Source: Chiloscyllium plagiosum
Lineage: Eukaryota
NCBI RefSeq assembly: GCF_004010195.1
Contig: NC_057719.1
Location: forward strand, 31,228,957-31,276,472
Reading direction: 5' to 3'
Length of the DNA: 47,516 bases
The notes beneath the pieces were generated by a model. The model saw only the letters and a program-made list of their open reading frames with translations. It searched no databases and was not told where the DNA came from. A program made the position numbers and the translations under genes. Position 1 is the first letter of the stretch. Each line of letters starts with the position of its first letter. Of the stretch, positions 18,248-39,546 are shown one piece after another.

Positions 18248-18447
18248 CTGGAAATGTGTTGCTGGAAAAGCGCAGCAGGTCAGGCAGCATCCAGGGAACA
18301 GGAGAATCGACGTTTCGGGCATAAGCCCTTCTTCAGCTTATGCCCGAAACGTCGATTCTCCTGCTCCCTGGATGCTGCCTGACCTGCGCTTTTCCAGCAA
18401 CACATTTCCAGCTCTGATCTCCAGCATCTGCAGACCTCACTTTCTCC
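18248..18447. mobile_element. Penelope-derived fold-back element, family A
   Basis: Near-perfect inverted arms. 17-bp TSD ccattttgtgtaagcag at 18231-18247 and 18448-18464. Confidence 0.9.
18301..18336 (-). ncRNA. Minimal hammerhead ribozyme core
   Basis: Minus strand CTGAAGA-A-GGGC-TTAT-GCCC-GAAA-C-GTC. Confidence 0.7.
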
Positions 18448-18509
18448 CCATTTTGTGTAAGCAGTCATGGGCCGTTTTGATGTAAGCAGGTACAGGCCAC
18501 CCCTACAGT

Positions 18510-18735
18510 TCACCACCAAATATTTTCATATATGTAAATGATGAAAAGCAATGGACGCAGCACCAATCCTTGTGGCGCACAGCTAACAGGCCTCCAGTCT
18601 GAAAGAAACCCTCCACCATCACTCTGTTTTCTACCCTCAAGCCAGTTCTGTATCCACTGGATAGTTCTAGTATTCCATGTAATCTAATGGAGTTAACCAG
18701 TCTATCATGTGAAGCCTTGTCAAATACTTTGTAGA
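18510..18735 (-). mobile_element. CR1 RT fragment
   Basis: Reverse complement of the CR1 'IQNWL...VMVEG..SDWRPV' region. Confidence 0.75.
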
Positions 18736-18993
18736 AGGAGTTATAGATTTTGGGCTATAGCATCATTGAGGAGAAAGTGGAAACCAGCACGGAGTTGTGA
18801 AATCAGCCATGTTGAATGGCAGAGCAAAATGGCTGAATTCCTCCTCCTACTTTTCCTATGTTTCACACTTTTGAAATCACTCAGAAACTGATCCCTTTGC
18901 ATTATTCAGTTCCATGACTCTGTTATGCAACCCCTACACTTTTTAACTATCCTCAAACTACCAACCAAGTCTTTTGGCTTCTTCCAATAAATA

Positions 18994-19213
18994 TAGTCAG
19001 TTCTTCTATAACGCAATGGTTGGTTTCTTGTGCAACCCCACAGTATAGAAAAATCGCCCTTTAGAAATAGTGCTTTGTGTTGGTAATGTAATAAATAGCA
19101 TTGCAGTCAACACACATTTAAAAAGTTTGTGCTGTAGAAACAGCGTCCCCAGTTCATCAGTTGTGCTACAGTGAATTCAGGTTGACAAAATGTGCATTAT
19201 AACAGAAATCTGT
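18994..19213. mobile_element. Tigger/pogo-like MITE
   Basis: Ends ta|tagtcagttcttctataacgc ... gcattataacagaaatctg|ta. A second copy lies at 22966-23157. Confidence 0.65.
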
Positions 19214-19599
19214 ATCAGAAATGCTCTTTTCTAAATATAGAATGTATTAGCAAAACATCCTGTATTTTGCTGACTTAAAATTTTAAAGAGCACATTCAAA
19301 TATGAATTGTACCATTCCCAAACAGACAAGTAATTAGAGACTCATTGAATCAGTAGTAAAAGTGTTTGTTTATTGCCGAACACGCAATCTGTGAGCCTGC
19401 CCTATTGAGCAGCATTTTAAAATATACAGGCAGTCCCAGGGTTGTGATTGGGTTCCGTTTTGGAGTCAGTGTGAAAGTCGGAACATAGAACCATGTTCAT
19501 ACAGCAAGTGTGTGTATGTCTGCTCTTGAATATTACATCTGTATGAGGCAGCATCATAACCCCTTGAAATCCTTAAAACGTTACTTGGGAAAATACTGT

Positions 19600-19675
19600 C
19601 TGGCCTGCTGTGTTTTTCCAGCACCACATTTTTCAACTCTGGTCTCCAGCATCTGCAGTCCTCACTTTTTCTCCT
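19600..19675 (+). mobile_element. 5'-truncated family A Penelope-derived element
   Basis: Family A 3' tail. TSD aaaatactgt at 19590-19599 and 19676-19685. Confidence 0.82.
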
Positions 19676-20116
19676 AAAATACTGTATACACAAAAGAAAA
19701 CATGATACAATTTATTATACTCAAAATGGCTATACCAAGCATTTTAAAATAGTACATCATTTCACCACCTATGGTAACCAGTACCTTTTTTAAAAAATTC
19801 ATGCCAGAATTTTAAAACATACCAATCAGTGTTGAGTTACAAAAAGATCCATCTCCATTTGCATGCCTTCTATAGACTCTATTTAAAAATCAACAAAACA
19901 AAATCCTTAAGTGGTGGTTTGTTTGTCTGAGGTTGGAAGGCTTTGTTTCTAGCTCAGTTATTTTTTGCAATAGCTTAAATATGAGAACTCATTGCGCTGT
20001 TTGTAATTTCCACTTAAAATTTCATGGTCTGTACTTCAAGTAAGCTAATTTGGGGAATTGTGCAAAATAATCTGCAGATCACAATGACATACCAATGTAT
20101 TTTCATATTCCTACAG

Positions 20117-20284
20117 TGTATTTGAACATGCTGTGTTAGCTGCAGGGACTGACTTTCGCTCAGACAGACTTTGGGAAACTTACATCAACTGGGAAAATGA
20201 CCGGGGAAATCTGGAAGAAGTGACTACAATTTATGATCGGATTCTTGGTATTCCAACGCAGCTTTACAGTCATCACTTCCAAAG
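20117..20284 (+). CDS. PRPF39: PRPF39 coding exon (human exon 5 equivalent), 168 nt
   Basis: ctacag| acceptor and AG|gtacac donor. Encodes VFEHAVLAAGTDFRSDRLWETYINWENDRGNLEEVTTIYDRILGIPTQLYSHHFQR, recognisably PRPF39 HAT repeats. Confidence 0.96.
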
Positions 20285-20985
20285 GTACACTAGAAAATCC
20301 AAAACAAAATATTTTTTTCCACACACTTTTATGGTTTGGTTCAAATCTTGCTTATTGTTGAAAATCTTATTCTCAAAGTTTGAGTGAAGTTTGGAATTGA
20401 TGTGACAAAATCTCAAAACAATTGATTATGGAAATATGAAATTAAGTGGTTAAGTATAGAGTGAGAAAACGTGTTTTTGTCAAGTTGTTTAAGGAAGTTC
20501 GTTCACTGGTTGACTGGGACAGATTCCATCTTGTATGATGTCTGTACATTGGTGAATTAGTGTTAAGATTTTTATTGTTGTATTTTATTGGGCAATTCAT
20601 GAGTATTTTAACTATTCCACAGTTAAAACCATTCTTGACTTTCAAACTACCCTGTTTCCTGACCAATAACCTCTGGAAAAATCAATGAAATGAAACTCAA
20701 AAATTGTGCTGACCTTGGAATATTTTTAAATTCTCCATATTCTTAGTAAATTAAAAGTTGTAATAGTTTATTTTTATTTTTGTGCAGAAATTCTACTACA
20801 GTCAACAAAGGATTAAATGTGAAATTCTCAATAAACTGAATCTTCAGGGTAGGAAAATTCCAATAGTGTATCCCAATATTTTGTATTATAAACTGGAATT
20901 TTCTTTCCTAACTCTTTGTCTGGTAATGAATGACTCATTAATCTACTATTTTACACGAAGTATGAATAATTCTACTGTTTTTCAG

Positions 20986-21145
20986 GTTCAAAGATCATGT
21001 TCAGAATCACTTGCCTAAAGATATAATCTCTTCAGAGGATTTTATTAAACTACGTCAAGAGCTGGCATCCACAAATGAACATTTTGATAATGTTACTCCA
21101 GGAAATGATCTAACAGCTGGAATTGATATAAATGATCCTGCTCAG
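20986..21145 (+). CDS. PRPF39: PRPF39 coding exon (exon 6 equivalent), 160 nt
   Basis: ttttcag| acceptor and CAG|gtaat donor. Encodes FKDHVQNHLPKDIISSEDFIKLRQELAS...INDPAQ, in phase with the previous exon. Confidence 0.94.
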
Positions 21146-21339
21146 GTAATGTAGACTATATATAAATTATGATTATATATGAATCCTGTAGTGATTCTAG
21201 CGTTAAAAATTTATTCTCTACTTCAATATGCAGTCACATGAACATCATAGTTGATTCAGGTGATAGGTTTCTTTAACTTTACTAACTGGGGTTTTGAAAA
21301 GCATAGTTCTAACTGTTTTATTTCTAATCTAATCTGATG

Positions 21340-21970
21340 TCTTATGCTACGGCATTGAGATGTATTTTGACCTGGCTTTTGTTTTTGATAGAAGGTTTTA
21401 AGGCAGAGGTTCCAAGCTGTCTATTGAAAATTCATAAAGTAAACAGCTGGTGAAGCCTTAGTTTTCTTATTAAAGTTGGGACAATAGAAGCAGCTTGAAT
21501 GAATGGGTGTAATCAAGCTCCCAGAAAACCAGAATATTTGCTTGTAGCTTTCAGCAATTGTTGCAGAGATCTCAGCAGGTTTTGGAAACTACAGTACATT
21601 TCTCCCTGTTACACTTTCTCAGAATTTTCTCTTAGTGTTTTGCTGCTGCTGGAGTTGCATTTGAGACTGTGTTTTTCTGAATTTGCCTTTGTCAAGGGTG
21701 TGTTTATGACATATTACTATATTGGAACAGTTAATTAGTAATAAGTTACTGGATCTATTAATTAGTTAATCATTATGATAGAGTTACGGCTAAGCTAATC
21801 TTTTTCTTCTGTTCTTATAGTATATGAATAAAGTGCCTTGCTTGACAATACGTTTAACCAATCAAATTGCATTTGGAATGCAACACCTTATGCTTACATT
21901 TAAAATAAATAAAATCTAGTGTCTACGCTACTTTAAAATATTTGGAGGGGGGTTTGGTCTGGTCTGTAAG
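21340..21970 (+). mobile_element. Probable solo LTR
   Basis: AATAAA near 21827 and terminal ggggtttggtctggtctgtaa resembling fish Gypsy LTR ends. Boundaries uncertain. Confidence 0.35.
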
Positions 21971-22124
21971 TCTATTGAGTTAGTGGCATGATTAGCCCTC
22001 ACTAATGGGTAAAGCCCATTGGGTCTGACTTGTCATTGTATGGCCATGATTGATCAGGTCATTCAGTTTCTTGACAGAAAATTAGATTTAATAAACTTTT
22101 TTGTTTGAAGTGTTACCAGGGCAT

Positions 22125-22590
22125 AAACTGGAAAGAGTGCAAAGAAGATTTAAGAGGATCTTGTCAGGACTCAGGCCTGAGTAGGACTTTATTCCTTGGA
22201 ATGTAGGGGAGTGAGGGGTGACTTTATTGAGGTGTATAAAATCATGGTAGATGTCGATAATATGAATGCATATAGACTTTTTTCCCCCCCAAGGGTGGAG
22301 AATTGAATATGAGAGGGCATTGTTTTAAGGTGAGGGGGGGAAAGATTTAAGAAGAACCTGAGGGCCAACATCTTCATACGAGAGTGGTGCATATATGGAA
22401 TGGGCTGCCAGGAAAGTGGTTGAGGCAGATACATTTTAAAAAAAACATTTAGATAGGCACATGGGTGGGAAGGGTTTAAAGGGATATGGACCAAATGCAG
22501 GCAATTGGACCTGGCTGAGTGGACACCATGGTCAGCATGGACTAGTTTGGGCTGAAGGGCCTGTTTCCATGCTGTATTACTCTATAACTA
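22125..22590 (+). mobile_element. CR1 3' fragment
   Basis: RGDFIEVYKIM and a CR1 3' UTR and tail. Confidence 0.85.
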
Positions 22591-22594
22591 ATGA

Positions 22595-25500
22595 AGCCTA
22601 ATGATTTTGTGGTGTATGTAAATTTCCAAAAGGTATTCAACATATTTCTGCAAAACAGATTTAAACAAAGTTAGAGCTCATGGAATAAAAAAGATGGTAG
22701 CAATGTGGGTATGAAAGTAATTGGTTCAGTGACAGGAAACTAACTGTTAGAAGTGATTTTTTTTTTGGTATGGAGGAAGGTTCTCTGGGTCAGTGCTAGG
22801 ACTTCTGCATTTCCTTAAGAAATTATCTAGACCTTGGGTGTACTGGGGGCAAGTTAAAATTGTGAGCAACAAAAAAAATCTGAAAGCATTGTAAATTGAG
22901 GACACTGTAGAATTTCAAAGGAATACTGACAAGAGTGGGATTGATAAGTGGCAGATTAAGTTCTCCAGTCAGATCTTCTATAATATGATAGTTGCATTCT
23001 TGTGCAACCCCACATTATTAGAAATGCTGCGCTTTAGAAACCGTGCTTAGTGTTGGTGCTGTAATCGCCTTACAGCCAACACACATTTTAAGTTTGCACT
23101 TTAGAAACAGTGTCCCCATTTCATCATTCACATTACAACAAATTTGTGTTATTGAAGCTTGAGTTATAAGAATTGCGTAGGAGTATGCTTAAGAAGGAAA
23201 TCAGGAAGGCAGAAAGGGGACATAGCTTTGGCAAATAGTGTTAAGGAGAATCCAAAGGGATTTTACAAGTACATTAAGCACAAAAGGGTAACGAGGGAGA
23301 GAATAGGACCCCTCAAAGATCAGCAAGGCAGCCTATGTGTAGACGCAGGACATGGGTGAGATACTAAACGAGTATTTTGCATAAGTGTTTACTATGGAGA
23401 AGGACAAGGAAGATATGGAAAAGGGAAAATAGATGGTGACATCTTAAAATGTCCATATTACAGAGGAGAAATCCCCAGGACCTGATCAGGTGTACCTTGG
23501 AACTCCTGCAGGAAGCTAGGGAAGTGATTGCTGGGCCCCTTGCGGAGATATTTGTATTATCGATAAGAGTGGAGGTTGGCAAATGTAGTGCCACTATTTA
23601 AGAAAGGTGGTAAGGAAAAGCCAACAAACTTTAACCAGTGTGCCTGACATCGGTGGTGGGGAATCCTGAGGGGCAGACTTTGCTTTTACTTGGAAAGGCA
23701 AGGACTGATTAGGGATAGTCAACATGGCTTTGTGGATGGGAAATCATGTCTCACTTCTTCAAAAAGCTCAAACTAGTAACGAAGAGGATTGATAGAGGCA
23801 GAGTGCTGGACATGATCTGTATGGACTTCAGTATGGCATTTGACAGGGTTCCTTCTGGTAGACTGATTAGCAAAGTTAGATCACGTGGCATACAGGGAGA
23901 ACTAGCCATTTGGTTACAGAACTGGCTCAAAGGTAGAAGACAGGGTGGTGGTGGAGGGTTGTTTTTCAGATGGGAGGCCTGTGACCAGTGGAGTGCCACA
24001 AGGATCGGTGCTGGGTCCCCTACCTTTCTTCATTTTATATAAATGATTTGGGTGTGAGCATAAGAGGTAAGGGTCTGTTTCCATGCTTTACATCTCTGAC
24101 ATCAAACTTGGAGGTGTAGTGGACAGCGAAGAAGGTTACCTCCGATTACAACAGATCTTGATCAGATGGGCCAATGGGCTGAGAAGTGCAGATGGAGTTT
24201 AATTTAGATAAATATTTTGGGAAAGCAAATCAGGGCAGAACTTGTACACTTAATGGTACGATCCTGGGGGAGTGTTGCTGAACAAAGAGGCCTTGGCGTG
24301 CAGGTCCGTCATTCCTTGAAATTGGATTTGCAGACAGGTAAGATAGTGAAGAAGGTGTTTGGTATGCTTTGCTTTCTTAGTCAGTGCATTGAGTATAGAA
24401 GTTGTGAGGTTATGTTGTGGCTGTACAACACATTGGTTAGGCCACTTTTGTAATATTGTGTGCAATTCTAGCCACCTTCCTATTGGAAGGATGTTGTGAA
24501 ACTTGAAAGGGTTCAGAAAAGATTTGCAAGGACGTTGCCAGGGTTGGCGAGTTTGAGCTATAGGGAGAGCCAAATAGGCTAGGGCTGTTTTCCCTGGAGC
24601 ATCGGAGGCTAGGGGTAATCTTATTGAGGTTTATAAAATGATGAGGGGCATGGATAGCATAAATAGAAGAGTTCTATTCTCTGGTGTGGGGGAAATCCAG
24701 AACTGGAGGGCATAGGTTTAGGGTGAGAACGGAAAGATATAAAAGGGACCTAAGGAGCAACTTTTTCATGCAAAGAGTAGTGAGTGTATGGAATGAGCTG
24801 CCAGAGGAAGTGGTGGAGACTTGTACAATTAGAGTATTTTAAAAGGCATCTGGATGGGTATATGACTGGCAAGGGTTTAGAGGGATATGGACCAAGGCCT
24901 GGCAAATTGAGCTAAATTAATTTAGGATATCTGGTATCTTTTCCATGCTGTACATCTCTGACTCTATGACCTTTATTTGAAGACACAGCACTGTCTACAT
25001 TTTAGTAGAAAGATTGTAGCGAGTGGTATAAACTGAAAAGAATAGCTGGAGCATAGACACCAGGGTGTATGTGCATAAGTTATTCAAGTTGGCAGGAGAA
25101 ATGAGGGAGCAGTTATCCAATATAGAGTATCCAGGCTTTCTTAGTAGCAGCGTAAAGAACATGAGCAAAGTGGTTATGCTGGACTTGCATAAGATACTTG
25201 TTGGACCTCCTTTTTGAGTATTATGTATAGTTATGGCAGCACACTTTAAAAAGGATGTGAATGCATTGGTGAGTGTGCTGAAACAGTTCTATGGGTGAGA
25301 AAATTCAGTTATAAAAATAAATGAAAAGTTAGGACTATTTTTGTTGGAGAAGAGATGGCTAAGGAGATTTGCAAGTTTTCAAAATTGAGGTGTTTGGATA
25401 GAGAGAAACTGTTGCTATTTGTAAAAGGATTGAGGTTGAAGGATACAGATTTGTAATTTGTTAAAAGACAAATATCTCAAGAAGCTTATTGTAAGTAGTT

Positions 25501-25685
25501 AAGATCTGGTATGCAAGTGTGGTGGAGGCAATTTCAGTCAAGGTGGTCGAGGAGAGTGGGTAATTGTTCCTCTTCAAATGTGTAGGGTTATGGGAAGAAG
25601 GTAGGTGAATGACACTAATTCATAATGCTAATTTGCAGAGCTGGTGCAGATGTAATGGATCAAATATGCTGCATCGATCCTATGA
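22595..25685 (+). mobile_element. Old CR1 (~22595-22965 and ~24975-25685) interrupted by a MITE (22966-23157) and a younger CR1 (23158-24970)
   Basis: The old copy's coding remnants resume after the younger copy's ctctatgac tail. Confidence 0.75.
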
Positions 25686-26214
25686 GAAGGAAAAGTAGAT
25701 TCGTTGAATTAGTAATTTGACCTTCACTGAAGAAAACATACAAAATATTAACTGGAATGGCACCTTAAAATAAGTTGTAGAGAGGCATTTATTAGGTTTA
25801 ATATTTATAAGCAACAATGTGGAGCAAGTTATTGGGTTTAAGATTTTCATAGCTCACCCTAGTATGTCTAGAGTAAATGTGAAAAATTTGCAGATGTTGT
25901 TTTAATTGTCTGTTGCTCTTTAGATTCAGAAATTCTGCATTTGGACTGGAAAATTAAATGGTACTGATATTACTTAAAGTGAGCAAAAAACAATTAAGGC
26001 ACAAAGTTTTGTGACTTATTTTCTGTAAACCTAAGTTAGCAAAGAGCCATTGTTAACCATAAGCTGTAGAGGTAAAAGATAAAAATAGTTCTGTGCTTCA
26101 GAATGTGTGGTGGTGACGTTTATCATGAATTTCTATGCCGACTTGTGAAGAGTGAAAGATGTGAGTAGATTAACTTCGTCAGTGTGCACTTACATAGTGG
26201 CTTTCATAAATTGG

Positions 26215-26444
26215 TGTCAATAGTAGTCATGATTTGCAGATGTTGGTGTTGGACTGGGGTGTACAAAGTTAAAAATCACAACATCAAGTTGTTGTCCAAC
26301 AGGTTTAATTGGAAGCACACTAGCTTTCGGAGCGTCGCTCCTTCATCAGGTGATAGTCACCTGATGAAGGAGCGACCCTCCGAAAGCTAGTGTGCTTCCA
26401 ATTAAACCTGTTGGACTATAACGTGGTGTTGTGTGATTTTTAAC
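26215..26444. mobile_element. Penelope-derived fold-back element, family B
   Basis: Inverted arms around ggtgatagtcacc. TSD ttcataaattgg at 26203-26214 and 26445-26456. Confidence 0.9.
26321..26389. ncRNA. Back-to-back minimal hammerhead cores (minus 26321-26349, plus 26361-26389)
   Basis: cac-CTGATGA-A-GGAGC-GAC-GCTCC-GAAA-GCTA-gtg on the minus strand. The plus copy has one stem II change. Confidence 0.72.
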
Positions 26445-26739
26445 TTCATAAATTGGGAGGCTTTCAAGGCCCACATTCCTTCTCCAAGGAATAGAATACT
26501 TTTTACCTTTTTTCTTTCTTCCATGTATACAAGTAAGGATTTAAAAGTGCAATATTTGCAATTCATACCTTTGCAAGTCAGATCATGAAGATTCCGGGTC
26601 TTCTAAATTGTAGTTTCTCTGACATTCTAAGTATCGAGGAATGTTTGAAAATGTGTATGATTGCTATGATTCGGTATGCATTTAAATTTTATGGTATCGT
26701 CCCTTTGCATAAAATTTTCTCACTTCCAGTAATAATTTG

Positions 26740-27990
26740 ATCATGCAGAACTTGAGTATTGCTGAAAAACTCATCTTGTCAACTTGTCACCTTGCACTCA
26801 TCAGGACAGTTCGTAAGCATACCAGTTCAAAAGGAATCATTTAAAATATGTAAGTGGCGAGTGCTGATTTGTTAGCAATTGGACTCTGAATACCGTGCTG
26901 TGGAGGATGCACCCATTAATGCTAATTCACAGTTAACTCTTAGGTTTTGTATTTATACTGGGGAGGTTGACTGTGAACCAGCAAATGGCTGTCACCTGTT
27001 TTGAGTTGAAATAGGTGCAGTATGTGTTAATGTGTTCTTTTATGCTGACAACAAGCAGGCCTTTTCCTCAACTGATGCTCCTAAATTGATTGTCTGCATA
27101 ATTCTTCACATTGGAAAATATTTGCTAGATATTCCTGTTACATAACCACAGACAGCCATTGTTGGATACTTGAGTTTCGCAAAAGCAGTCTGGTTGAGTA
27201 TACTCCACATTTTATGAACTGTCGAAGGGATATGCTCCTTGGCATCACGCCAGCACTGAAATTCATGTTCTGCATCACTTATTTGTATTATAAGCAATAC
27301 ATCTTTTTGGCTTCGAAGCAGCATCCTGTTGGTAGTGAACATCATTTGCGTGAAACTACACACTAGAAGTGTAAAATACCTAACTTCATCTGTTGTTGAG
27401 ACACTTTCAGGGTAATCTGAGGTGCACTGGACCCCTTTTCGAGATGGAGTGATCAACGTAGGGCCTTGTATGAGTTTGCGTGATATAGAGTGAGGAATTA
27501 CCTAATCGCGATAGCTTTAATCGAGTGGGACAGCCTTGAAACCGATCAAATTTGTTGTTGATTTTGTTTCATCAAGTTTGCACGGTGAACAAATAGCTTG
27601 AGCCTTATTTGTGAAGTTGCTAATAAGGCCAACCTTTAGCATGGTGAACTGTCTGAATCCTGGTGTGCATTCTGACCAGTGAAGATAGTTTTAAGGTAGA
27701 CACCTGGCTTTCTGTAGTATAAATTTGTGCTAATTGAGTTTGTCATTCATCGATTGAACAAAACTAAAAGACTGGGGGTCAGGCAGCTTCCGAGGAGCAG
27801 GAAAATCGACATTTCGGGCAAAAGCCGTCCTGATGAAGGGCTTTTGCCTGAAACGTCGATTTTCCTGCTCCTGATGCTGCCTGACCAGCTGTGCTTTTCC
27901 AGCTCCACTCTAATCTAGACTGCGATTTCCAGCATCTGCAGTCCTCACTTTTGCCAAAACTAAAAGACATAGAGTTTATCAATGGACTCC
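26740..27990 (-). mobile_element. Degenerate Penelope-like element (RT thumb plus GIY-YIG), third family
   Basis: Minus-strand KVGLISN..NKAQAICS and FTTNRML..SQKDVL...EFQC..DA. CTGATGA near its 3' end (26798-26804). Confidence 0.7.
27773..27954. mobile_element. Family A fold-back element nested in the Penelope copy
   Basis: TSD caaaactaaaagac at 27759-27772 and 27955-27968. Plus-strand hammerhead core at 27830-27857. Confidence 0.88.
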
Positions 27991-28399
27991 TTCCTCCGTA
28001 GAAAAGCGTTTATATAAGAGAATTAACTACAAAAATGTCATACCAAATATTCAAGCCAAAACTTCATCGAATTTGATATAAAACATTGCTTCGGTTTGCA
28101 AAGACTGAAAGAAAGCAAAATTTAAAATATAATGCATAAAAGAAAAATAGATTAGCCACGTCTATCTAGCTTTATCACTTTGACACCAGTACACAGGAGT
28201 ATTTTGTGACAACGGGGGTCGTCTGCAAAGAGATATAACTTTTGTGATTGGGCAAAAAAGAAGGGTATAATGTGGCAAAATGTGAAATTGTCCAATTTGG
28301 CAGATAGAAATGAGAAGCAGCACGTTATTTGTAGGGATTACAGAACTTGGCAGCTCATTGGGATCTGGGTGTATTGGCACATGAATTGCAAAAGATAAA

Positions 28400-28959: not shown

Positions 28960-30745
28960 AAATAAGTTAAAGATTGAATACAATCAAAAGAAGTGGATGC
29001 AGTGTAACAGTGGTAAGTCTGACGATTGGGAGCAATTTACATCACAAAAAGGGCGACCACGAAACTGACTATGAATGCAAACTCATGAGCAACAAAGGTG
29101 CACTAAAAGTTTCTTTTAAATATATTTAAAGCTAAATATTAGATCGAACAAAACTCCTCCATTAGAGATGGAGACACTAAAATTTATCGCCTTGGAGAAA
29201 GAGGCAGACACTCTCTCAGAAATATGAGGCAATCAAGGGACTGAGCAACTGAAAGAAATTAATTAAAGTTTCCTGGAACAAATTAACATATTCCCAGTGT
29301 GTTGAAGGAGATGGCTATAGAGTTAGTGGATGTATATCCTGAATTCTTTACATTCTGAAAAGGTTTCTGCAGACTGGAAAGCAACAAATCTAAACCCACT
29401 ATTTGCAAAAGAAGGGAGTGGGAAAATGGCCAAGTGCAGAGCTCTTAGTTTGATGTTGGGTTAGTAGGAAAACGTTAGAATTTACAATAAAGAATATAAC
29501 AACTGGACACTTTAAAAATGGTTCAATTGGGCAGAGTCAACATGAACATGTGAAAGAGAAATCACTTCTGACAAACATTTTCAAGGTTTTTTGACTATTT
29601 TCTATGTTTCAATATTTAACAAGCATTGAAATTAATGTGGAGAAAGAAAGGAAATAAAAATAAATGGGAAAAAAACTGGAATTTTTTTTCCAATTCCAAA
29701 AGCTAACCCTATTAGCGAGTGAGATGGAGAAATACTAAAATTAGAGGCAAAACAATCCACTACTCTGCAGCTGGGAGAATTTGAGGATACAAGATGATAA
29801 CCGTATGGCTCAACGAGGACCTGGAGGAAGGAACCATCAGCCTGGGAGACTAGCAGTTCAACGTGCATGGAGTATTTTACAATAATCCAGGCAACTATTG
29901 AAGTCTAAAGCATGGCGATCAAAATTTAGTTACTACTGTGCATGTGTTAAACATATTGAAATTTATCAGCCATGCTACATCAAAAATGAAGGTTAGAAAT
30001 ATAACCTTAGGAGCAGACTTTTCAGCATATCAAGCTGCTTCGCTATTTAATTACAAAATGGTTGATCGCCTGCCTCAAAGCTAATTTCTGCATGCAATCT
30101 CTATATTTCTTGATGTCATTATTCACCAGAAGGTATAAATGTCTATCCCTGACATGCTCAACAATTAAGCCATGATTGCTGTCTGGGGTAGAGAATTCCC
30201 AAGACTCACCACCCTCAGTGAAAAAATTCCCCCTTATCTGAGTCTTATACATTGCTGTCACCTGGTCCTAACCTCACCAGCCAGGGGAGCATGTTATCCA
30301 TTTCTACCCCATGTGCATATCATAAGTGTGGGTGAGGTTGTATCTTCAAAACATTTAAGAGAATGCACGTCCAGCTTCTCCATTTCTAATAATAAGATCC
30401 CACTATCCCAGGCATCAATCTGGTAAATGTTTGAGCTGTACGTTACACAAGACCATGAGAACCTTTTTCCACGTATGGAGTCAGCTATTACGAGGGGGCA
30501 CAGCTTTAAATTAAGGGGTGTAGGTATAGGACAGATGTTAGGGGTAGATTCTTTACTCAGCGAGTCGTGAGTTCACGGAATGCCCTGCCAGTAGCAGTGG
30601 TGGACTCTCCCTCTTTATGGGCATTTAAACGGGCATTGGATAGGCATATGGAGGAGAGTGGGATAGTGTAGGTTAGGTGAGCTTGGATCGGCGCAACATC
30701 GAGGGCCAAAGGGCCTGTACTGCGCTGTATTTTTCTATGTTCTCT
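28960..30745. mobile_element. CR1 fragments (plus ~28960-29600, minus ~30000-30430, plus 3' end ~30455-30745)
   Basis: CR1 RT remnants and 3' tails (gggcctgtactgcgctgta...ctatgttct). Confidence 0.72.
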
Positions 30746-31149
30746 TTTTCTAAGTGTGATCTCACAAGGTGCTACACACTTGCAGCAAGACATTTTTACT
30801 TTTATACTCCCACTGGTGCAGTGAAGGCCTTTTAGTGAGACACGACCAACACTTCCCAATCACACCTTTTTAGAAAAATACCAAATAAATAACTTCACAT
30901 CTTTTCACATGATATTCTAATATGGCTCCCCGGAACAGCTTGCGGGAAATCAAGCCTCAGTATTTCTGGAGTTAAAGATGTTAAAATATGCACTCAAAAT
31001 TCCCCAATTTACCTGATTTTCAGACCCAAAAAGCAGAGACCATGTTTATATCCTTACACGAATTACTATTTATTACAAAGTAACCAGACTCTGGCTACAT
31101 GTTGAGAGACAATGTGTTTTAGGTTATTTTACTCCGTCACCAGCTCGCT

Positions 31150-31560
31150 TAAACCCATTAATATCAGGTTTCCATTCATTCATTCATAACCCTTTACTAA
31201 TCTGTTGTTTACCAAAACACACTTTTATTCATTCATTTACATGCATTTTGTAGTATATTTTACTATTACAACATAGACCAAAATTAAAACCTCCCTTTCA
31301 CCATAAACCCTTACCAGGCCTATTTCTACATCAGAAACTACCCCCGAACAGGTGTCAATATCGTAAACAATACCGTCCCCTTCAAGTCTCCATGAAAGAT
31401 AATATTAATCAGCCCTTACCAAAAGTTTCTCGAATCTGGAACACCAAACATTTTCCCCAATTAGTACGTACTTGGGCCATTATCCCCTTAAGAAACGAAC
31501 AGTCAAAAATGTGAAATTGCATGAATGAATGAAACGCTCACTGGCAAATAGTGAACCCAG
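31150..31560 (-). mobile_element. Possible L1/Tx1 ORF2 C-terminal remnant
   Basis: Minus strand atgtttggtgttccagattcgagaaacttttgg resembles a frameshifted HMFW.C..I..FW motif. Confidence 0.3.
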
Positions 31561-31899
31561 CTGCGGTAATCAGTTGAATAACCTCTCTTCTTTTATTTCG
31601 AACAGGTACAATTTCTAATTTAAAGCATATAGGTCTAGTATTTTTACTAACATTTACTAACTTTTATAAAACAAAAGGACTAACATGTCTTAATTATGCA
31701 AGCAGACCTGACAGATGTTCTTAATCCAATCAGAAGTAGCAGCCAGCATTTAGCACATAGTCATAGAGATGTACAACAGATGGGACCTTATCGAAAGCCT
31801 TCTGAACGTCCAAGTAAACCGCATCCACAAGCGACTCCTTGTCATGTCTATAGTTACAACCTCCAAGTTCCCAGAGATTTATCAAGTTCTGTTTTATTT

Positions 31900-32305
31900 A
31901 TTAGATAGAAACCTGGAATGAGCAGTTTATCTTACAAGGAAAAGTTGAATAGATTGGGCTTGATTCCACTGGAATTGAGAAAAATGAAGGGTAATTTGAT
32001 TAGTGTATAAGATCCCTGAATAGTGGTGGTAAGGTGATTGTGGAAGATGTTTCTTCTTTAGAGTGAGTGCTAAGGTAGAGGACACTTTAAAAGTTAGGCA
32101 TCACCCTTTTAAGGAGGAGGTATTTTTCTGAGGACTTTGAGTTTGGAACTCTGCCACAAAAGGCAGTGGAGGTGAGGTCATTTGAATTATTTTTAAAGGT
32201 AAAGGTAGATTCTTGTTAGGCAGGGAAATCATACTCCATTGGAGTAGATGGGAATCTGGAAGTTATACACAAACTGGTTGACCGTTGTTTAATTGAATGG
32301 CGGAG
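31900..32305 (+). mobile_element. Old CR1 3' fragment
   Basis: Degenerate SY.E.L.RLGL..LE.R..KG.LI.VYK. Confidence 0.7.
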
Positions 32306-32633
32306 CTACCTGTCAGTCAAGGAAAAACGGAGGGAATTGGTAGAGTGGCAAGTGTGGAAACAGGTAAGCTGTCTACCTGACTGATGATCTTTACTCTTGC
32401 ACAGTGCCATTACCATGCTCCTGGGTTCCTCTATGCACATAGTGACCTGTTGAAGAATAGCTTGCTGTATTGCAATGGAAGCCGAGGAATCATTTATCAA
32501 CAGTGGTCACCTCTAAGCTTCCAGGCCAGCAGTCTGTGCTGTGTTCGAAGTTTTCTGATTCGTTGAGCAAGCTTCCATCTTACTGGCCTTCATAAGTGAT
32601 CTGACTGCTGAACCCAATCTCCACTGTAAAGGA

Positions 32634-32980
32634 GGGGTGGCACGGTGGATCAGTAATGAGCACTGCTGCCTCAGCGCCAGGGTCCAGGTTCGATTCCAGC
32701 CTTTGGCAACTGTCTGTGTGGAGGTTGCATATTCTCCCCGTGTCTGCGTGAGTTTCCTCCGGGTGCTCAGGTTGCCTTCCATAGTCCAAAGATGTTAAGT
32801 GAATTGCCCATGCTAAATTGCCCAGAGTGTTCAGGGATGGTTAGGTGCATTAGTCAGGGATAAATATAGGGTAGGGAGAATGGATCTGAGTGGGCTACTC
32901 TTCAGAAGGTCCATCTGGACTTATTGGGCTGAACTGCCTGTTTCCTAACTGTAGAAATTCTATTCTGTATTATTCTATTC
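32634..32980 (+). mobile_element. tRNA-derived V-SINE (HE1-like)
   Basis: GGTGGCACGGTGGATCAGT...GGTTCGATTCC, the V-domain and a (tattc)n tail. Confidence 0.9.
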
Positions 32981-33204
32981 ATACTCTGCAACACACCCTT
33001 CCCAGTCAAGATGATTGTTTCTAAATCTAATTGGCCTCAAATTAGCATTCGGTTTCATCATCCATCATTGTTTTCCATGCAAGTCCTTTGGACGTTAATG
33101 GGTAATTTTGTGCCTACTGGAGCATTTAAATTCTGAAATGAAATTCTCTCCCTTGTGCCTGTGCTGGAATTCAAATTTTGCATTGCAGTTTGTGGCTTTT
33201 TTTT

Positions 33205-34295
33205 TGTTCTGAAAATTGGTGGTATAGTGGACAGTGAAGATTACAAAAAAATCTTGATCAATTTGGTCAATGGGCTGACTGGTAGGTGGAGTTTAATTTG
33301 GATAAATACAAGGTACAGATACAAAATCCTTTATCCGAAATGATCGGGACCAGCTGGTTTTCGGAATTCAAAATTTTTCAGAATAAGTGAGTTTGGTGAA
33401 ATTTTTAAAAATCTTAGCAGAGGAGCAGCCTCAATCAGTAAAACTGGGCTTGAGAGAGAGGCCTGCCAGTGCTGGGCCACGCCCCCACATGTCTCATCTG
33501 TGTGACCCACAGAGTGGGTGACGACTTGGGTTAACTGCATGCCAAACAACCTTATTAATGAGAAAAAAACTTCACAAAAAAAAACCTTCGGATTTTGGAT
33601 AAAGGATTGTCGACCTGTACTGGATTTTGGTAATACAAACAAGGGCAATACTTATACAATTAATGGTAGGGCCTTGGATATGTTGTAGAATGGACATGTA
33701 GGGGTTCTGGTGCATAATTCTTCGGAATTTGCATCACAGAATGGTTAAGGTGTTGAGCAAACTTGCTTTCATTGCTCAGCCCTTTTGTGTAAAGGAGTTG
33801 GGATGTCATGTTGAGGTTGTACAGGATATTGGTGAGGCATCTTCTGGAGTACTGAGTACAATTCTGGTTGCCATGTTATAGGAAGGTTATTATTAACTTG
33901 GAGAGGGTTCAGAAAAGATTTCCCAGTATGTTACTGGGAATGGAGGGTTTGAGTTATAAGGCGAGGTTGAATGGGCTTGGACTTTTTGCACTGGAGTGTA
34001 GGAAATGGAGGGATTGCCTTGGAGGTTTATAAAATGAGGAGCATAGATAAAGTGAATAGCAAGGGGACAACTTTTTCTCATAGACACTGGTTCTGGCAGA
34101 ATCACCTGCCAGGTGAAGTGGTAGGGGCAGGTACAGTTAGAATATTTAGAAGACATTTGGATAGAGACACGAATAGGAAAGGTTTAGAGGGATACAGGCT
34201 AAATGCAGGCAAGTGGGACTAGTTTAGCTTGGGAGCATGGTTGGTGTGAACTAGTTGGACTGAAAAATCCTACAGCATGGAAACAGACTCTGTGA
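33205..34295 (+). mobile_element. CR1 3' half interrupted by a MITE
   Basis: KIGGIVDSED through the CR1 tail. Confidence 0.82.
33316..33617. mobile_element. Tigger/pogo-type MITE with TA TSD
   Basis: ta|CAGATACAAAATCCTTTATCCGAAA ... TTTTGGATAAAGGATTGTCGACCTG|ta. The CR1 sequence resumes after it. Confidence 0.88.
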
Positions 34296-34299
34296 TTGT

Positions 34300-35220
34300 C
34301 TTAACATGCTTCCACTATTAATGCCAATTTTCTTCAGATAATTCATCTCACTAGTCCATGCATTTTGGATGTTACTTGTGTTTTTGTGAAGTCAGAACCA
34401 AAGTATGTATTTAATTATCTCAACTATAGCTTGTTATTTTTTACTGTAGAGACCTCGTTTGTCTTTAGTAATTCTTTCAAATACTATAGAAGCTATTGCC
34501 ATTTAATTTGTATGTTCCTATAAACTTACTCTCCTACTCTATTTTCTCCCACTTAATCCTTTTGGCCTTCAAAATTTAAACTTCTCTCAATCCTCCAGTC
34601 TTTTTTTTAGCCACTTAGTAAACCCTATTCTTGGATCTAATTGCTCTTTTCCATCACGGTCAGGCTAACTTTCTATTTCTATGCCAGATAAGAATGAACA
34701 ATTGTTGCATCTCCTATATGTTCTCTTTCGATATTTGCCATTGCCTATCCATCATCGTCACTTCAACAAGACACCAGCTATGCTTGCTTAAAGCTTCCTT
34801 TATTTAGATTCAGATTCTCAATCAACTGTCCGTCTTTAATGATTTCTATCATTTAGCGTCACACTTTCCCAAAGGGACTTGCACAACTCAATTAGCAATA
34901 ATGCTTTCACATTACACAATGCCCAGCCTAGAATGACCTGCTTAGTAGTTGGTTCCTAAACACGCTGATCCAGAAAACCAGCTTGTAAATATTCCAGGAA
35001 TTCTTTCTCCAGTATTTCCCCCTCTTCTGTGTCCCTACATTTGTCCCATTAGCCCTGCCTTTCAATTCAATTCTTCCCAGCTGCCATCCGAGCAAATACT
35101 CCCATATGGACATTTGTTCAGATCTGCCTGATACAATCTGTCCACCTTGTACTGGTCCCACCTTCCCCAGAACCAGTACCAATGGCCCAGGAATCTGAAA
35201 CACACCACCTTGCAATATCT
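34300..35220 (-). mobile_element. Old CR1 (endonuclease/linker region)
   Basis: Minus-strand remnants similar to 4340-5280 (FLEYLQAGFLDQRV.EPT...ILGW.LCN). Confidence 0.6.
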
Positions 35221-35852
35221 AGCAACTTAACTGATACCCTTCTATTTATACTCTGCCCACCACATGGGGTGGGCAGCAAATGCTGGTCAGCCAGCAATGC
35301 CCATATCCCAAGATTGAATAATAAAAATTAACAATCCTGAGAGAGCTGTGTTTTGAGGTTCTGCTTTTAGCTTCCTTTCTAACTCTCTATATTCTGCATT
35401 AAGGATATTATCCATTGTCTTTTGTATGCTTCATTACTTGATAACTCCCTCTTTCAATTTAATTTTAGCTGCTTCTCTTTGGTCTTGTTTCTCTTGTTTT
35501 TTGTTTATCTTTTTATCCTTTTTTTTTTGTGAGCATGTCTGTCATTTCTCTTTTTTTTTGGGCTTTTCCACCCAGATCCCAGCGATCATCCTCTCACTCC
35601 CTCATTTCTAATTCTTTTCAGTCTCTCCCACTTGCACATTGAATTTCTTTCAAGTTTCAATAAAACAATGAGGCTAGTCTTTCCAAAGTGCTTGTGCTTT
35701 CTGTACAGTTGTCCTGTAATACATTTAATTCTGGCTCATGTCTGGGATGTTGAATTATTTTCGTGCTGTTCATATTCCTATTTAGTTTCATCCAAATTAA
35801 TTACTTTTGTTATCACCTTCTATTTGGTGAGGATTTGATTTTGTTCTTTCAG

Positions 35853-35960
35853 ATTGTCTCTGAAATAGAAAATATGCGTCATAGAATAATTGAAGTTCGT
35901 CAGGAAATATATAATCATAATGAGAATGAAGTTAGCAGACGATGGGCTTTTGAAGAAGGG
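35853..35960 (+). CDS. PRPF39: PRPF39 coding exon (exon 7 equivalent), 108 nt
   Basis: ttctttcag| acceptor and GGG|gtaagt donor. Encodes IVSEIENMRHRIIEVRQEIYNHNENEVSRRWAFEEG. Confidence 0.96.
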
Positions 35961-36681
35961 GTAAGTATTAAAAGGAAATTAAATGTGGAAATTCTAAAAC
36001 GAAAAGTGCTACAAAATGCTATTTGTTTGTAAGATTCATTTTTGCCCAATACAGGCATGAACTTGAGGCAAAACATATCCATAATTTTGTTTCCCTGAAG
36101 ATATAAGAGAACATAGTCTGTCTATTTTGCAATAATCCCAGATTCTCCCACCTCTCCATGTAATTGGAGTTCTTCATCTCTGGTGTCAGCCTGATAAAAC
36201 CATCTCTCTACTCCCTCAAAATTGTGCATTTTCTTACTGAAGTATGGTGCCTAGACGTGATCAATTTGAGGTCTTACCAATTATTTTACGACTGTTTAGC
36301 ATAATATCACATCAATAACCAAGCATTTTCTCAACTCACTCTACCACTTTCAAAAATGTATAATGTTCCTGCACCCTCTTCCAAGTTATCGTCATGTGAA
36401 TTTACTTTTTAATCGTCCAGACTACCCATCAAGGCAACTGATGAACTTGAATTCAGTTAATAACTCTGGAATAAATCTGGACGATGGAACTATTGTCAAT
36501 TGTTATAAATTCTCATCTGGTTCACCAATATCCTTTTAAGGAAAGATCCGTTTGCTGGATCTGGCCACCATGTAACTCAACACCTCCTCCAACAATGTAG
36601 TTGATTGTTAAATACACCCTGAAACTGCTCAACAAACTAGTCTTGTGTTGAACCACTACAAAGTCTAAGAAATGAAACCAG

Positions 36682-36835
36682 AATCATAGAATCCCTTCAG
36701 TGTGGAAACAGGCTATTGGGCCCATCGAGTCCACACTGATCTTCCAAAGAGGATCCCATCCAGACCTTCACCCCTACCCTATCCCCATAATCCTACATTT
36801 CCCAGGGCCAGTTCACCTAACCTGCACCTCTTTGG
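36682..36835 (-). mobile_element. 3' half of an HE1-like SINE
   Basis: Matches the tail half of the SINEs at 1258 and 16382. Confidence 0.75.
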
Positions 36836-38609
36836 TCCATCTGACATCAATCTGTGCAGTGAAAACTGCAACAGCAAGCCCAGCCCTTTTGCCACTGTAA
36901 AGTTATCCCTTAACTAGGTTCTGGGGAGCACTGTCTCAAGTTAGTCAAGCCACAGCCTGGCATTGTCATACTCTTGGGATTATATCTCGCAGCATCACCC
37001 ACTGGAGCAAGCCTATCAGGGGATGAATGCAAAGTGGTATGCAGTTTGGAAGAACTTGCCCTGGGCGTCTTCAACATTTGACTCTGGATCTTGTGAAACG
37101 TCAAGGCGTCAGGTTAAGCATATGAATTAGAAGCTGGGTTAAGGCATTTGGCGTCTCCATCCTGATCTGCAATTCAAAAATATCATGGGCTAATCTGATT
37201 GTGTCCTCTACTGTTGTTGTTCTTGGTCGAGAATCTACCTCTGCCTTAAAAATATTCACTGACCTTGCTTCCACTACTCTGGCGAAGAGCTCCACAGGCT
37301 TACACCCTCAGGATAAAATGTCCTTCTCATCCCTTCCCATGGCTGCTGAATCAATACTCCTCATTGAATGTTGTTTTGAGGAAGCATTGAATGAGGCAAG
37401 GGCATAAAATGGTTAGGAGACTTCAATGTCTGTCACCCAATTATTGTTTAGTAACTGTTAGCCACTATTTACAGAGCAAGATGAATCCTATGGGAATCAT
37501 ATAGCTAATATGGTGGATCTATAGCAGGTATCGAGGGAATTTAACCAGGGGAGAAAACATTTTTCCTATTCCTCATCAATTTAAAATCTATTTGTGCCAG
37601 ATGCATCTGTCCATGTTAGAATTAGTAGAAATGACCGCAACGTCCTTGCAGAGACAAAACCATATTTTCACAATGAAGGTATTTTCCATGTTATATGGCC
37701 CTACCACTGTGATCTAGGAACAGATCTGACAACTCACTGGTCACTCTTGAGATGCTGTGGGCCATCAACAGGAGTATGCATTCAAGCACTATTTGTAGCT
37801 CCATGACCAGCATATCACAATCTCATTACTATAAGCTGGGGTTCTCTCCTGGGTAAATGAGGAGGCCAAGAAGTCATGTCTGGAGCAGCACCAGATATAC
37901 TGAAAATTAGGTGTCAATGTGGTGAAGCTACAAAGCAGAAATCCTTGCATGCGAAAAAGTGGAGTCAGCATGTGTTTAATAAATGCTAAGTGATCTTGCT
38001 TCCAATGGATCAGGTCTAAACTGTGCAATCCTGCTGCTTAAAGCTGTAAAGGATGCTGAACAGGTAAACAGCCAAGAGAAGGAGGTAACTCCACAAAAAT
38101 CATCATAAATTATAGGATAACCCAGAAAATTGATGCTGAAGACATGCTGAACCACTTAGAAGCACTTCAGCCCAAGGTACTGAATGGTTCATCTATTTCT
38201 GCTTCAACCTGTGCTCCAGAACATTAACTGAGCTCTATCTATAACTACAACACTGGTATCTACCCAGCGATGTTGCCAGGTATGTCTTGTCCATGAAAAG
38301 CAAGTAAAGCCTGACCCCTCTAATAACTCTGTTATCAACAGAGTGGTGGAAAAGGTTGACAATGCTGTTATGTGGCACTTGGTCAGAAATAACCTCCGCT
38401 CGTGTATCGCTTGTGTTCTACCAGAGCAACTCACACCCTAAACTCATTAGTCTTGATTGAAACATGAACAAAAGAGCTAAATTCCAGAGGTGAGGTAGAA
38501 GTGACTGCCCTTGATATTAAAACCGTATTTGTTTAAGGGTATGCCAGACATCACTGCAGGAGTTCATCGGGGTAAGACTGAGGGCACTCGTCACTCATCC
38601 TACCAGAAG

Positions 38610-38789
38610 ATAGAATGCTTTCTGATTAGAGACAACTGGTGGTAGTTTAACCTGAGGGTTACTATCCCTCTACAGAGGGACAAGGTTGAGAAGATGGGAC
38701 CTTCATAACACCTTCAGCTAGTGCAAAAATTGAACCTGTGCTGTTGGCATCACAAATCAGCATCTAGCCAACTGAGCTAACTGACCCCC
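38610..38789 (-). mobile_element. Second tRNA-derived SINE family
   Basis: Minus strand GGTCAGTTAGCTCAGTTGGCTAGA (A box) ... GGTTCAATT (B box), then a non-tRNA body. Confidence 0.7.
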
Positions 38790-39417
38790 AGCTTTGTCAA
38801 TGACCTTCCCTCCTTCCCTCAGTCAATGACCATCTCTCAAACAAAATAGAATGTAACCATCTCCCTGTAACATTTAATTATCATAATTTCAACTGAATTA
38901 CCTCACTATTAACATCCTGGATATTACCATTGGCCAGAAATTGAGCTGGACTGGAAATATAAATGCAATGCCAGAAAAGAAGGGCAGAAGCTAAGAATTT
39001 TGAAGCAATTAACTCTGTTTTCTTTGTGGCCATCCATGTGCAAAGCACAAGTCTCGAAGGTGTTGGAAGCTCTGTACTTGTTTGGATGGATACATTTCCA
39101 AAACACACTGTCTTGACACCATCAGGTCATGGTAATCAACTTGATGAACACCATATCCACAACCTTCATCATTCACTTCGTTTACCACACCCAATGACAG
39201 CAGTGCTTGCCATTTACACGATCCACTACAGCAACATGCCAAAGCTCCTTTGACATGTTCCATGAATTTTACACCAGAACAGACACATGGGATCACAATA
39301 GCACGTAGGTTCTATTCCAAACCCCAAATTATTTTTATTTGGAACAAGATTTAAATTGATTTATGTCACTGGATCAAAGTCCTGGAACACCTGTCCTTAA
39401 TTGAACTGTGGATATAC

Positions 39418-39546
39418 CTGATGAAGGGCTTTTGCCTGAAACGTCGATTTTCCTGCTCCTTGGATGCTGCCTGACCTGCTGTGCTTTTCCAGCACTATTC
39501 TAATCTAGACTCTAGTTTACAGCATCTGCAGTCCTTGTTTTTACCT
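39418..39546 (+). mobile_element. Family A monomer starting at the hammerhead core
   Basis: CTGATGAAGGGCTTTTGCCTGAAACGTC at 39418-39445. TSD tgtggatatacct at 39407-39419 and 39547-39559. Confidence 0.88.

What the first reader, a model, noticed from the sequence alone, without database searches (positions are those of the whole stretch)
18248..39546. Family A: short TSD-flanked elements built around a minimal hammerhead ribozyme
Seen: copies at 18248-18447, 19600-19675, 27773-27954 and 39418-39546, each with a 10-17 bp TSD. The core CTGA(T/A)GA-A-GGGC-loop-GCC(C/T)-GAAA-C-GTC matches the hammerhead consensus with a vestigial palindromic stem III (ACGT) and a GUC cleavage triplet. The 19600 copy is truncated and lacks the core. 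Established: Penelope-like elements and animal retrozymes carry such minimal hammerheads, thought to cleave as dimers. Inference: a non-coding, ribozyme-bearing family mobilised in trans by a Penelope RT/GIY-YIG. Two sense-strand cores (27830, 39418) lie in the PRPF39 pre-mRNA. The 5' strand of stem I appears lost in these copies, so activity is uncertain.
Basis: partly seen in the sequence, partly recalled or inferred. Interest (0 to 1): 0.7.

Follow-up and report, generated by a model that had tools for sequence, protein, structure and literature searches.

The report
Shark Penelope-end insertions carrying minimal hammerheads
The four short repeats are real, but most likely they are stumps of the ribozyme-bearing end of a very abundant Penelope-like retrotransposon, a known kind of element, and the copies inside the PRPF39 gene are unlikely to cut its RNA.

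Summary
Observation confirmed: four copies with exact 10-17 bp TSDs, and three minimal hammerhead cores (0.015-0.035 expected by chance). Corrections: the 18248 core is on the minus strand; copies 18248 and 27773 are fold-backs with an inverted 5' arm; 27773 keeps a 3-bp helix I. The shared 3' end, variable 5' end, inverted arm and an optional 36-nt tail match published Penelope-like element (PLE) insertions, and the motif fits the published PLE minimal-hammerhead consensus. Public runs hold 82,000-91,000 matching contigs each, including members extending further upstream. Best reading: solo pLTR-sized products of PLE reverse transcription on uncleaved RNA. No autonomous partner was linked, so cis versus trans mobilisation stays open. 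It does not meet the retrozyme definition here (no tandem units in the window). Cleavage of PRPF39 pre-mRNA is unlikely. One unexplained feature: 5' ends pile up at the ribozyme's 5' edge (8 of 11 arms across two families; all 13 listed inversion joints). This scan already reported similar fold-back PLE ends on two other pieces of this genome.

The parts
18231..18247 (.). Copy 1 left TSD (17 bp); right copy 18448-18464
   Evidence: exact repeat
18248..18336 (-). Copy 1 inverted arm; begins at hammerhead C3 (18336), core 18336-18309, ends at the tail-less 3' end
18337..18447 (+). Copy 1 direct arm; starts at about +11 (no CUGANGA) and runs to the full 3' end
18412..18447 (+). 36-nt tail, present on the direct arm and absent from the inverted arm (34-36 nt allowing for microhomology)
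   Evidence: self-alignment; length; the PLE tail concept is from PMC11167929 and PMC3846280
19600..19675 (+). Copy 2, 5'-truncated at about +46, no core; TSD 19590-19599/19676-19685
27773..27826 (-). Copy 3 inverted arm (homology 27777-27826), starts at about +9; TSD 27759-27772/27955-27968
27828..27954 (+). Copy 3 direct arm; hammerhead core 27830-27857; helix I 27827-27829 with 27858-27860; helix II closes with a G.U pair
39417..39546 (+). Copy 4, direct only; core 39418-39445 with 1-bp helix I; TSD 39407-39419/39547-39559
75..105 (-).
   Evidence: blastn 87% over 31 nt, E about 1e-5
20115..20290 (+). PRPF39 exon (aa 193-252), host gene
35850..35965 (+). PRPF39 exon (about aa 303-340; boundaries approximate)
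42634..42906 (+). PRPF39 exon (aa 437-527)

Best explanation
Family A copies are solo, pLTR-sized insertions of the hammerhead-bearing end of a very high-copy, endonuclease-bearing Penelope-like element in a carpet-shark-type genome. Likely cycle: (1) the element's GIY-YIG nuclease nicks chromosomal DNA, with staggered nicks giving 10-17 bp TSDs (TSDs shown; enzyme inferred). (2) RT starts inside the element RNA at one of two sites about 36 nt apart, giving the shared 3' end with or without the tail (ends shown; internal priming inferred from the anole element PAc). (3) RT copies through an uncleaved hammerhead (shown: every core-bearing arm reads across GUC intact) and usually stops at the ribozyme's 5' edge, about 90-130 nt later. 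The simplest cause is that it is copying the 5' pLTR of the element's own transcript and runs off the RNA's 5' end (inferred). (4) In a fraction of events a second, oppositely oriented arm is laid down at the same site, giving a fold-back (shown). The ribozyme is kept by selection in the source elements and decays by CpG mutation once inserted. The copies in the PRPF39 introns are passengers.
For: Polarity: all four direct arms end at the same 3' position while their 5' ends differ. Two of four copies have an inverted 5' arm. Copy 1's arms differ by a 36-nt 3' extension. These match the 'inverted 5'-truncated copy' and '30-40 bp tail at one end' described for PLEs (PMC8557442 passages; PMC3846280 passages). 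In PAc the tail is the stretch between two internal RT starts, 111-118 nt into an ORF that begins in hammerhead stem II, and unprocessed RNA is the dominant template (PMC11167929); family A's 3' ends lie about 90 and 128 nt from C3. The motif fits the published consensus, including the extra base after A9, G10.1-C11.1 and a palindromic 15.2-16.2 pair; 39437 is C in 67% of X1 depth. Its helix II and core are nearly the same as the motif listed for an Acropora Neptune PLE. Runs X1, X2 and X9 lay 91,061, 82,063 and 85,884 contigs. In X22, 159 reads share a further upstream consensus (agreement 0.52), so longer members exist. One X1 contig carries 34 more letters beyond the 3' end and then returns to the core. 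A Chiloscyllium plagiosum protein model ends in a tail-less solo copy that starts at the core and sits between a duplicated 5-residue stretch. The window's own Poseidon fragment shows a GIY-YIG ORF followed by a decayed minimal hammerhead.
Against: No ORF was linked to family A. Protein searches with two reading frames of the element found only exonised pieces or nothing (2 hits among 2 candidates; 2 weak hits; 0 of 7 candidates). No genome is held. The upstream loose-end consensus at 39417 is clear for only about 7-10 nt (agreement 0.35-0.46), so most copies are short, which a separate short master would also explain. Unlike PAc and Adineta Pen2a, I could not show an ORF starting inside this pLTR. 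The Poseidon fragment in the window has a different terminal sequence and is not the partner.
Confidence: 0.58

Rival explanations
1. A distinct non-autonomous master of about 130-140 nt, a pLTR that became independent, is transcribed by itself and mobilised in trans by a PLE protein. The insertion mechanism is the same; the source RNA differs.
For: The sharp 5' boundary at the core and the rapid loss of upstream consensus. No ORF link found. pLTR sequences suffice in cis for mobilisation in trans in Adineta (PMC3846280). Non-autonomous PLE derivatives are proposed in bioRxiv 10.64898/2026.07.22.740005.
Against: Upstream-extending members and a downstream extension exist. The same 5' boundary recurs in unrelated family B, which points to a mechanism rather than to one master's end. 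Internal RT initiation yields short copies without needing a short master.
Confidence: 0.29
2. Non-LTR retrozyme: tandem units self-cleave as dimers, circularise, and are reverse-transcribed from circles.
For: table 5c lists two joints from the 3' end back to the core (X1 39545 to 39417 with 34 letters between, depth 50.9; X2 39546 to 39419), best read as head-to-tail dimers. Retrozymes are reported in one chondrichthyan.
Against: No tandem units in the window. Only 2 such rows among the 12 shown (54 hidden), against many inversion joints. Copy ends map to the tail sites and the core's 5' edge, not to the cleavage site. Partial tandems are also normal for PLEs.
Confidence: 0.06
3. A SINE mobilised by the abundant CR1/L2-type LINEs, or a MITE-like DNA element; the hammerhead match is incidental.
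For: LINE RT fragments are abundant in the window; fold-back shape.
Against: No A-rich or repeat 3' tail, and no blastn match of the copies to the LINE fragments. Arm lengths differ between copies and two copies have no inverted arm. The core is conserved with covarying helices across three families.
Confidence: 0.04
4. The two sense cores are functional or domesticated intronic ribozymes acting on PRPF39 pre-mRNA.
For: Both are sense and intronic, with all 11 strictly conserved core bases intact.
Against: Copy 3 folds into a -102 kcal/mol hairpin with its own inverted arm, which sequesters most of the core. Copy 4 has a 1-bp helix I. Both have G.U where most of the family has G10.1-C11.1. Helix III needs a partner, and the other sense core is 11.6 kb away. 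Minimal hammerheads are inactive as monomers and weak as dimers, and the PAc one needs protein.
Confidence: 0.03

Closest known systems
Minimal hammerheads (min-HHR) in pLTRs of metazoan Penelope-like elements (Cervera and de la Pena 2014, PMC4209133)
   Same: CUGANGA plus an extra base, G10.1-C11.1, GAAA, palindromic 15.2-16.2 with no loop 3, short helix I; mostly dispersed single motifs; opposite-strand pairs close together are described there too.
   Different: No cartilaginous fish among the 56 motifs of Fig. S3 as read in text form. Helix I of the family consensus is very short (2 pairs, then a mismatch). The ORF-bearing parent is not identified here.
Complex EN+ PLE insertions with inverted pLTR and tail (Adineta Pen elements, PMC3846280; Fig. 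2 legend of PMC8557442)
   Same: Head-to-head inverted 5' arm, 30-40 bp tail on one arm, TSD around the whole unit, solo pLTRs.
   Different: Here the unit is reduced to the pLTR alone (76-200 bp), TSDs are 10-17 bp (8-10 bp in the Adineta examples read), and copy number is very high.
Poseidon element PAc of Anolis carolinensis (PMC11167929)
   Same: Hammerhead about 100-130 nt upstream of the insertion's 3' end, two 3' ends defining a tail, uncleaved RNA as template, and no RNA ends seen at the cut site in public RNA-seq.
   Different: The PAc ORF starts in stem II; no such ORF start is shown for family A. Family A's clade is not established (a weak resemblance to a Neptune motif).
Animal non-LTR retrozymes (PMC7761336; bioRxiv 10.64898/2026.07.22.740005)
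   Same: Non-coding, type I hammerhead, unit size near the 150-300 bp range, proposed dependence on PLEs.
   Different: Defined by tandem units with hammerheads and circular RNA. The window's copies are dispersed monomers or fold-backs with TSDs.

Membership tests
PLE minimal hammerhead | CUGANGA and GAAA boxes, NUH triplet, helix II | tested here: met
   3 family A hits, null 0.015-0.035
PLE minimal hammerhead | Extra base after A9; G10.1-C11.1; palindromic 15.2-16.2 | tested here: met
   Copy 1 has all three. Copies 3 and 4 have G.U at 10.1-11.1, where most of the family has C (67% of X1 depth). The pair is C-G in family A and G-C in family B.
PLE minimal hammerhead | Helix I | tested here: inconclusive
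   3, 1 and 0 pairs in the three copies. The family's upstream consensus gives 2 pairs and then a mismatch; an A at 39448 (about 17% of X9 depth) would give a third. Published motifs have 2-6 pairs.
PLE minimal hammerhead | Core more constrained than neighbouring sequence | tested here: met
   Across families A, B and C the boxes are kept while 3' flanks of A and B are unrelated (87 of 500 shuffles score as well). Within A, 0 of 17 constrained against 13 of 50 other non-CpG positions vary (p=0.014; 0.19 if 2 of the 12 hidden rows hit constrained sites), so this part is weak.
PLE minimal hammerhead | Self-cleavage as a dimer or with protein help | not testable with these tools
   Needs a bench assay
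EN+ Penelope-like element insertion | Fixed 3' end, 5' truncation, inverted 5' arm, optional 30-40 bp tail, TSD | tested here: met
EN+ Penelope-like element insertion | Sequence is the pLTR of an RT plus GIY-YIG ORF | tested here: inconclusive
   No link found; no genome held; these searches were weak for this purpose
Non-LTR retrozyme | Two or more consecutive tandem units, each with a complete hammerhead | tested here: not met
   None in the window. Two candidate head-to-tail joints exist elsewhere (table 5c), so the genome is not excluded.
Non-LTR retrozyme | Circular RNA with a junction at the cleavage site | not testable with these tools
   The only RNA run laid was a polyA single-cell library (X22), which cannot show circles
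Rfam hammerhead families | Match to a curated covariance model | tested here: not met
   No hammerhead model among the 6 matches at E up to 5

The most novel reading that the evidence does not exclude
Short PLE insertions do not truncate at random: they stop within a few bases of the hammerhead's 5' edge, in at least two unrelated families. This would mean the templating RNA begins there (a transcription start or processed 5' end at helix I), or that the nuclease resolves the intermediate there (the upstream consensus ends in ATT, the motif PAc cuts best). The ribozyme would then mark the 5' boundary of the copied unit while itself staying uncut, and internally primed copying of the 5' pLTR would mass-produce solo pLTRs with no separate non-autonomous master. 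That gives a testable handle on the open question of what PLE hammerheads are for.
Probability: 0.35. Interest if true: 0.5.

Novelty: new member of a known kind. Interest (0 to 1): 0.22.

Why it matters
As it stands this is ordinary: thousands of dispersed minimal hammerheads tied to PLE ends are published for many animals, and the inverted-arm-plus-tail pattern is standard. The shark family adds a vertebrate genome with a very large number of natural insertion products. If the 5' pile-up at the ribozyme edge holds genome-wide, those copies would map both the start and the stop of PLE reverse transcription in vivo. That bears on the unresolved role of PLE hammerheads and on how pLTRs become non-autonomous elements.

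Tried and rejected
Rfam scan at E up to 5: no hammerhead model; the miRNA hits reflect only the copy 1 hairpin. No whole genome held. DNA pattern scans for longer loci: metagenome contigs 0 loci, then 48 loci; genome contigs 9 loci; viral contigs 0 in three scans; phages no match. The best blastn match among the 57 loci was 34 nt, so I treated them as chance. Protein searches for a link to an ORF: one search found two isoforms of one host gene with an exonised copy; one search found two weak short hits; one search found none among 7 candidates. These are weak negatives. No Neptune-type ORF remnant turned up in the window by motif scan (motifs recalled). Upstream PRPF39 exons (aa 1-192) were not found in the 65 of 110 plus-strand frames of 40 aa or more that I scanned between 3.6 and 20.1 kb; placing copies 1 and 2 in a PRPF39 intron is therefore inference. 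Sequencing-run search: no RNA holder listed, which is no evidence either way. In run X22 no pile-up of starts or ends was seen (table 6); this polyA single-cell library, read to about 2%, is unsuited to showing cleavage ends, and it did not cover the unique flanks, so it says nothing about expression of this locus. Single-strand folding of the cores gave no significant z-scores except the copy 1 hairpin, and co-folding two cores did not return the hammerhead dimer as the minimum-energy form; this is uninformative for a weak or protein-assisted fold. Summed contig depth was not used as a copy number. Lunse et al. 2017 (dimer cleavage) is not held; I saw only its title in a reference list.
Full report
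OBSERVATION. The four copies lie where stated. Each has an exact flanking duplication of 17, 10, 14 and 13 bp; 0 of 3000 random intervals had an exact flanking repeat of 10 bp or more. The copies align at 78-91%. A strict minimal-hammerhead descriptor found 6 motifs in the window, 3 from family A and 3 from a second family B, against 0.015 and 0.035 expected under first- and third-order Markov nulls. Rfam returned no hammerhead among 6 matches at E up to 5. PRPF39 runs on the + strand, so the cores at 27830 and 39418 are sense and intronic. Copies 1 and 2 lie 5' of the first exon I could map, and their intronic position is inferred. Protein hits and earlier scan notes indicate a carpet shark; the species was not determined.

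Copy 1 is a fold-back: an inverted arm (18248-18336) that starts exactly at C3 and carries the only complete core, then a direct arm from about +11. Copy 3 has an inverted arm (27777-27826) and a direct arm from about -2. Copy 4 is direct only and copy 2 is cut at about +46. All four direct arms end at the same 3' position. Copy 1's inverted arm stops 36 nt short of that end. A Chiloscyllium plagiosum gene model ends in another copy that runs from the core to this shorter end between a duplicated five-residue stretch. Helix I has 3 pairs in copy 3, 1 in copy 4 and none in copy 1, so it is not lost throughout.

THE FAMILY ELSEWHERE. Copy 4 with flanks was laid on four runs at 85% likeness. The three DNA runs, from three coded organisms, laid 91,061, 82,063 and 85,884 contigs, almost all on the element; this shows a very abundant repeat but is not a copy number. 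Position 39437 is C in 67% of X1 depth, so the G.U in copies 3 and 4 is most simply CpG decay of G10.1-C11.1. G12, 15.2, 16.2, C17 and 1.1 all show CpG-type changes at 9-20%, as expected for copies decaying after insertion. Among non-CpG positions, 0 of 17 constrained core and helix II sites were listed as variable against 13 of 50 others, which include N7 and loop II (p=0.014). Twelve rows were hidden and two hidden hits would raise p to 0.19, so this is weak. Across families the test is clearer. A, B and the window's Poseidon end (C, decayed) share the two boxes while helix II differs and still pairs, and the 15.2-16.2 pair is C-G in A and G-C in B. The 3' flanks of A and B are unrelated. 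Upstream of the core the loose-end consensus is clear for only about 7-10 nt and ends in ATT (agreement 0.35-0.46). A separate set of 159 RNA reads shares a longer upstream consensus (0.52), so longer members exist. Of 15 joints shown (41 hidden), 13 are strand inversions: 8 have one side at 39417 and 5 at 39418-39421. Two of 12 rows shown in table 5c (54 hidden) go from the 3' end back to the core and are best read as head-to-tail dimers. Run X22 laid 2,737 of about 13 million reads, in both orientations, 99% of them running on into unrelated sequence, consistent with passive read-through in host transcripts.

MECHANISM. A fixed 3' end, variable 5' end, TSD, inverted 5' arm and a 30-40 bp tail on one arm are the published signature of endonuclease-bearing PLEs (PMC8557442, passages; PMC3846280, passages). 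For the anole element PAc, RT starts internally at two sites about 110 nt past the hammerhead, the tail is the stretch between them, unprocessed RNA is the main template, and the ribozyme cuts only with protein present (PMC11167929, parts 1-2 of 4 and passages; its Fig. S2 could not be seen). Family A fits this layout, with ends about 90 and 128 nt from C3 and cDNA that reads across an intact GUC. I therefore read the copies as solo pLTR-sized products of PLE reverse transcription. Shown: ends, TSDs, tail, inversion, intact read-through. Inferred: the enzyme, internal priming, and the source RNA. Whether that RNA is the autonomous element's own transcript (0.58) or a separate short master (0.29) is open, because no ORF could be tied to this sequence (and the DNA scans). 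The window's Poseidon fragment at about 2150-3520 shows the expected order, GIY-YIG ORF then hammerhead, but has a different terminal sequence.

UNEXPLAINED. 5' ends cluster at the ribozyme's 5' edge. In the window 8 of 11 arms of families A and B start within -5 to +2 of C3; the exceptions are +9, +11 and about +46. The inversion joints agree. A caveat: the reference itself stops resembling the family at 39417, so arms that begin a few bases further upstream collapse onto that position; the listed spacers that precede 39417 end in ATT. Possible causes are run-off at an RNA 5' end, nuclease resolution at ATT (the motif PAc prefers), or a short master. In Drosophila virilis the intron's 3' end maps to the same place. 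I found no statement of such clustering in the texts read, but did not search for it exhaustively (one search was the one search aimed at it).

PRPF39. Copy 3 folds back on itself at -102 kcal/mol, pairing helix II and the GAAA-GUC half of the core with the inverted arm. Copy 4 lacks helix I, and the two sense cores are 11.6 kb apart. Minimal hammerheads showed no monomer activity and low dimer activity. An effect on the pre-mRNA is unlikely.

COMPARISON AND NOVELTY. The motif is a member of the PLE minimal-hammerhead class by sequence (PMC4209133, parts 1-2 of 4 and supplement parts 1-2 of 3); activity is untested. It does not meet the tandem definition of a non-LTR retrozyme in this window (definitions from bioRxiv 10.64898/2026.07.22.740005, parts 1-3 of 5, and PMC7761336, passages; background from PMC6155905, passages). 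That preprint includes one chondrichthyan, and its closed supplements may already list this family. Five literature searches found no description of a shark PLE hammerhead family; Repbase and Dfam were not searchable. Two earlier notes of this scan describe fold-back PLE ends on other pieces of the same genome; they are not independent support.

VERDICT. Real, and correctly recognised as a PLE-type minimal hammerhead, but best filed as a new member of a known kind. Interest 0.22. The 5' clustering is the one lead worth a genome-wide check.

Noticed in passing
window 15630-15790, 26260-26446, 40652-40735: Second hammerhead-bearing short family (B), with an AGCU palindrome and a 3-bp helix I. 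Two copies are fold-backs, and all five arms start within 0-4 nt of the core. The 40652 and 15680(-) cores have G12 changed to A.
   Followed up: partly
window 2150-3520: Head-to-head inverted pair of 5'-truncated Poseidon-type PLE ends (RT-thumb and GIY-YIG remnants), 59-80% identical to shark PLE proteins in the best GIY-YIG stretches, with a decayed minimal hammerhead at 2171(-) and a more decayed one near 3479(+).
   Followed up: partly
window 46250-46700: Old, decayed relative of the family A end, preceded by a long C/T-rich stretch that may be PLE 3' UTR; no intact core.
   Followed up: partly
protein P0002: A Chiloscyllium plagiosum FUBP3-like gene model ends in an exonised family A copy with its TSD in frame; probably an annotation artefact.
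   Followed up: partly
protein P0006: A Stegostoma Poseidon protein model appears to read through its own 3' hammerhead region.
   Followed up: no
table 5c, runs X1 and X2: Joints from the element's 3' end back to the core (one with 34 extra letters) and 39536 to 39465 in two runs: candidate tandem and partial-tandem copies; the 34 letters may be the start of the parent element's body.
   Followed up: no
window 18451-18498: A 25-bp unit repeated twice that overlaps copy 1's right TSD; similar short stretches recur just upstream (about 18140-18245).
   Followed up: no
window 136-1140 and many other sites: Numerous LINE RT fragments (RVT_1); the CR1/L2 label is from recall.
   Followed up: no
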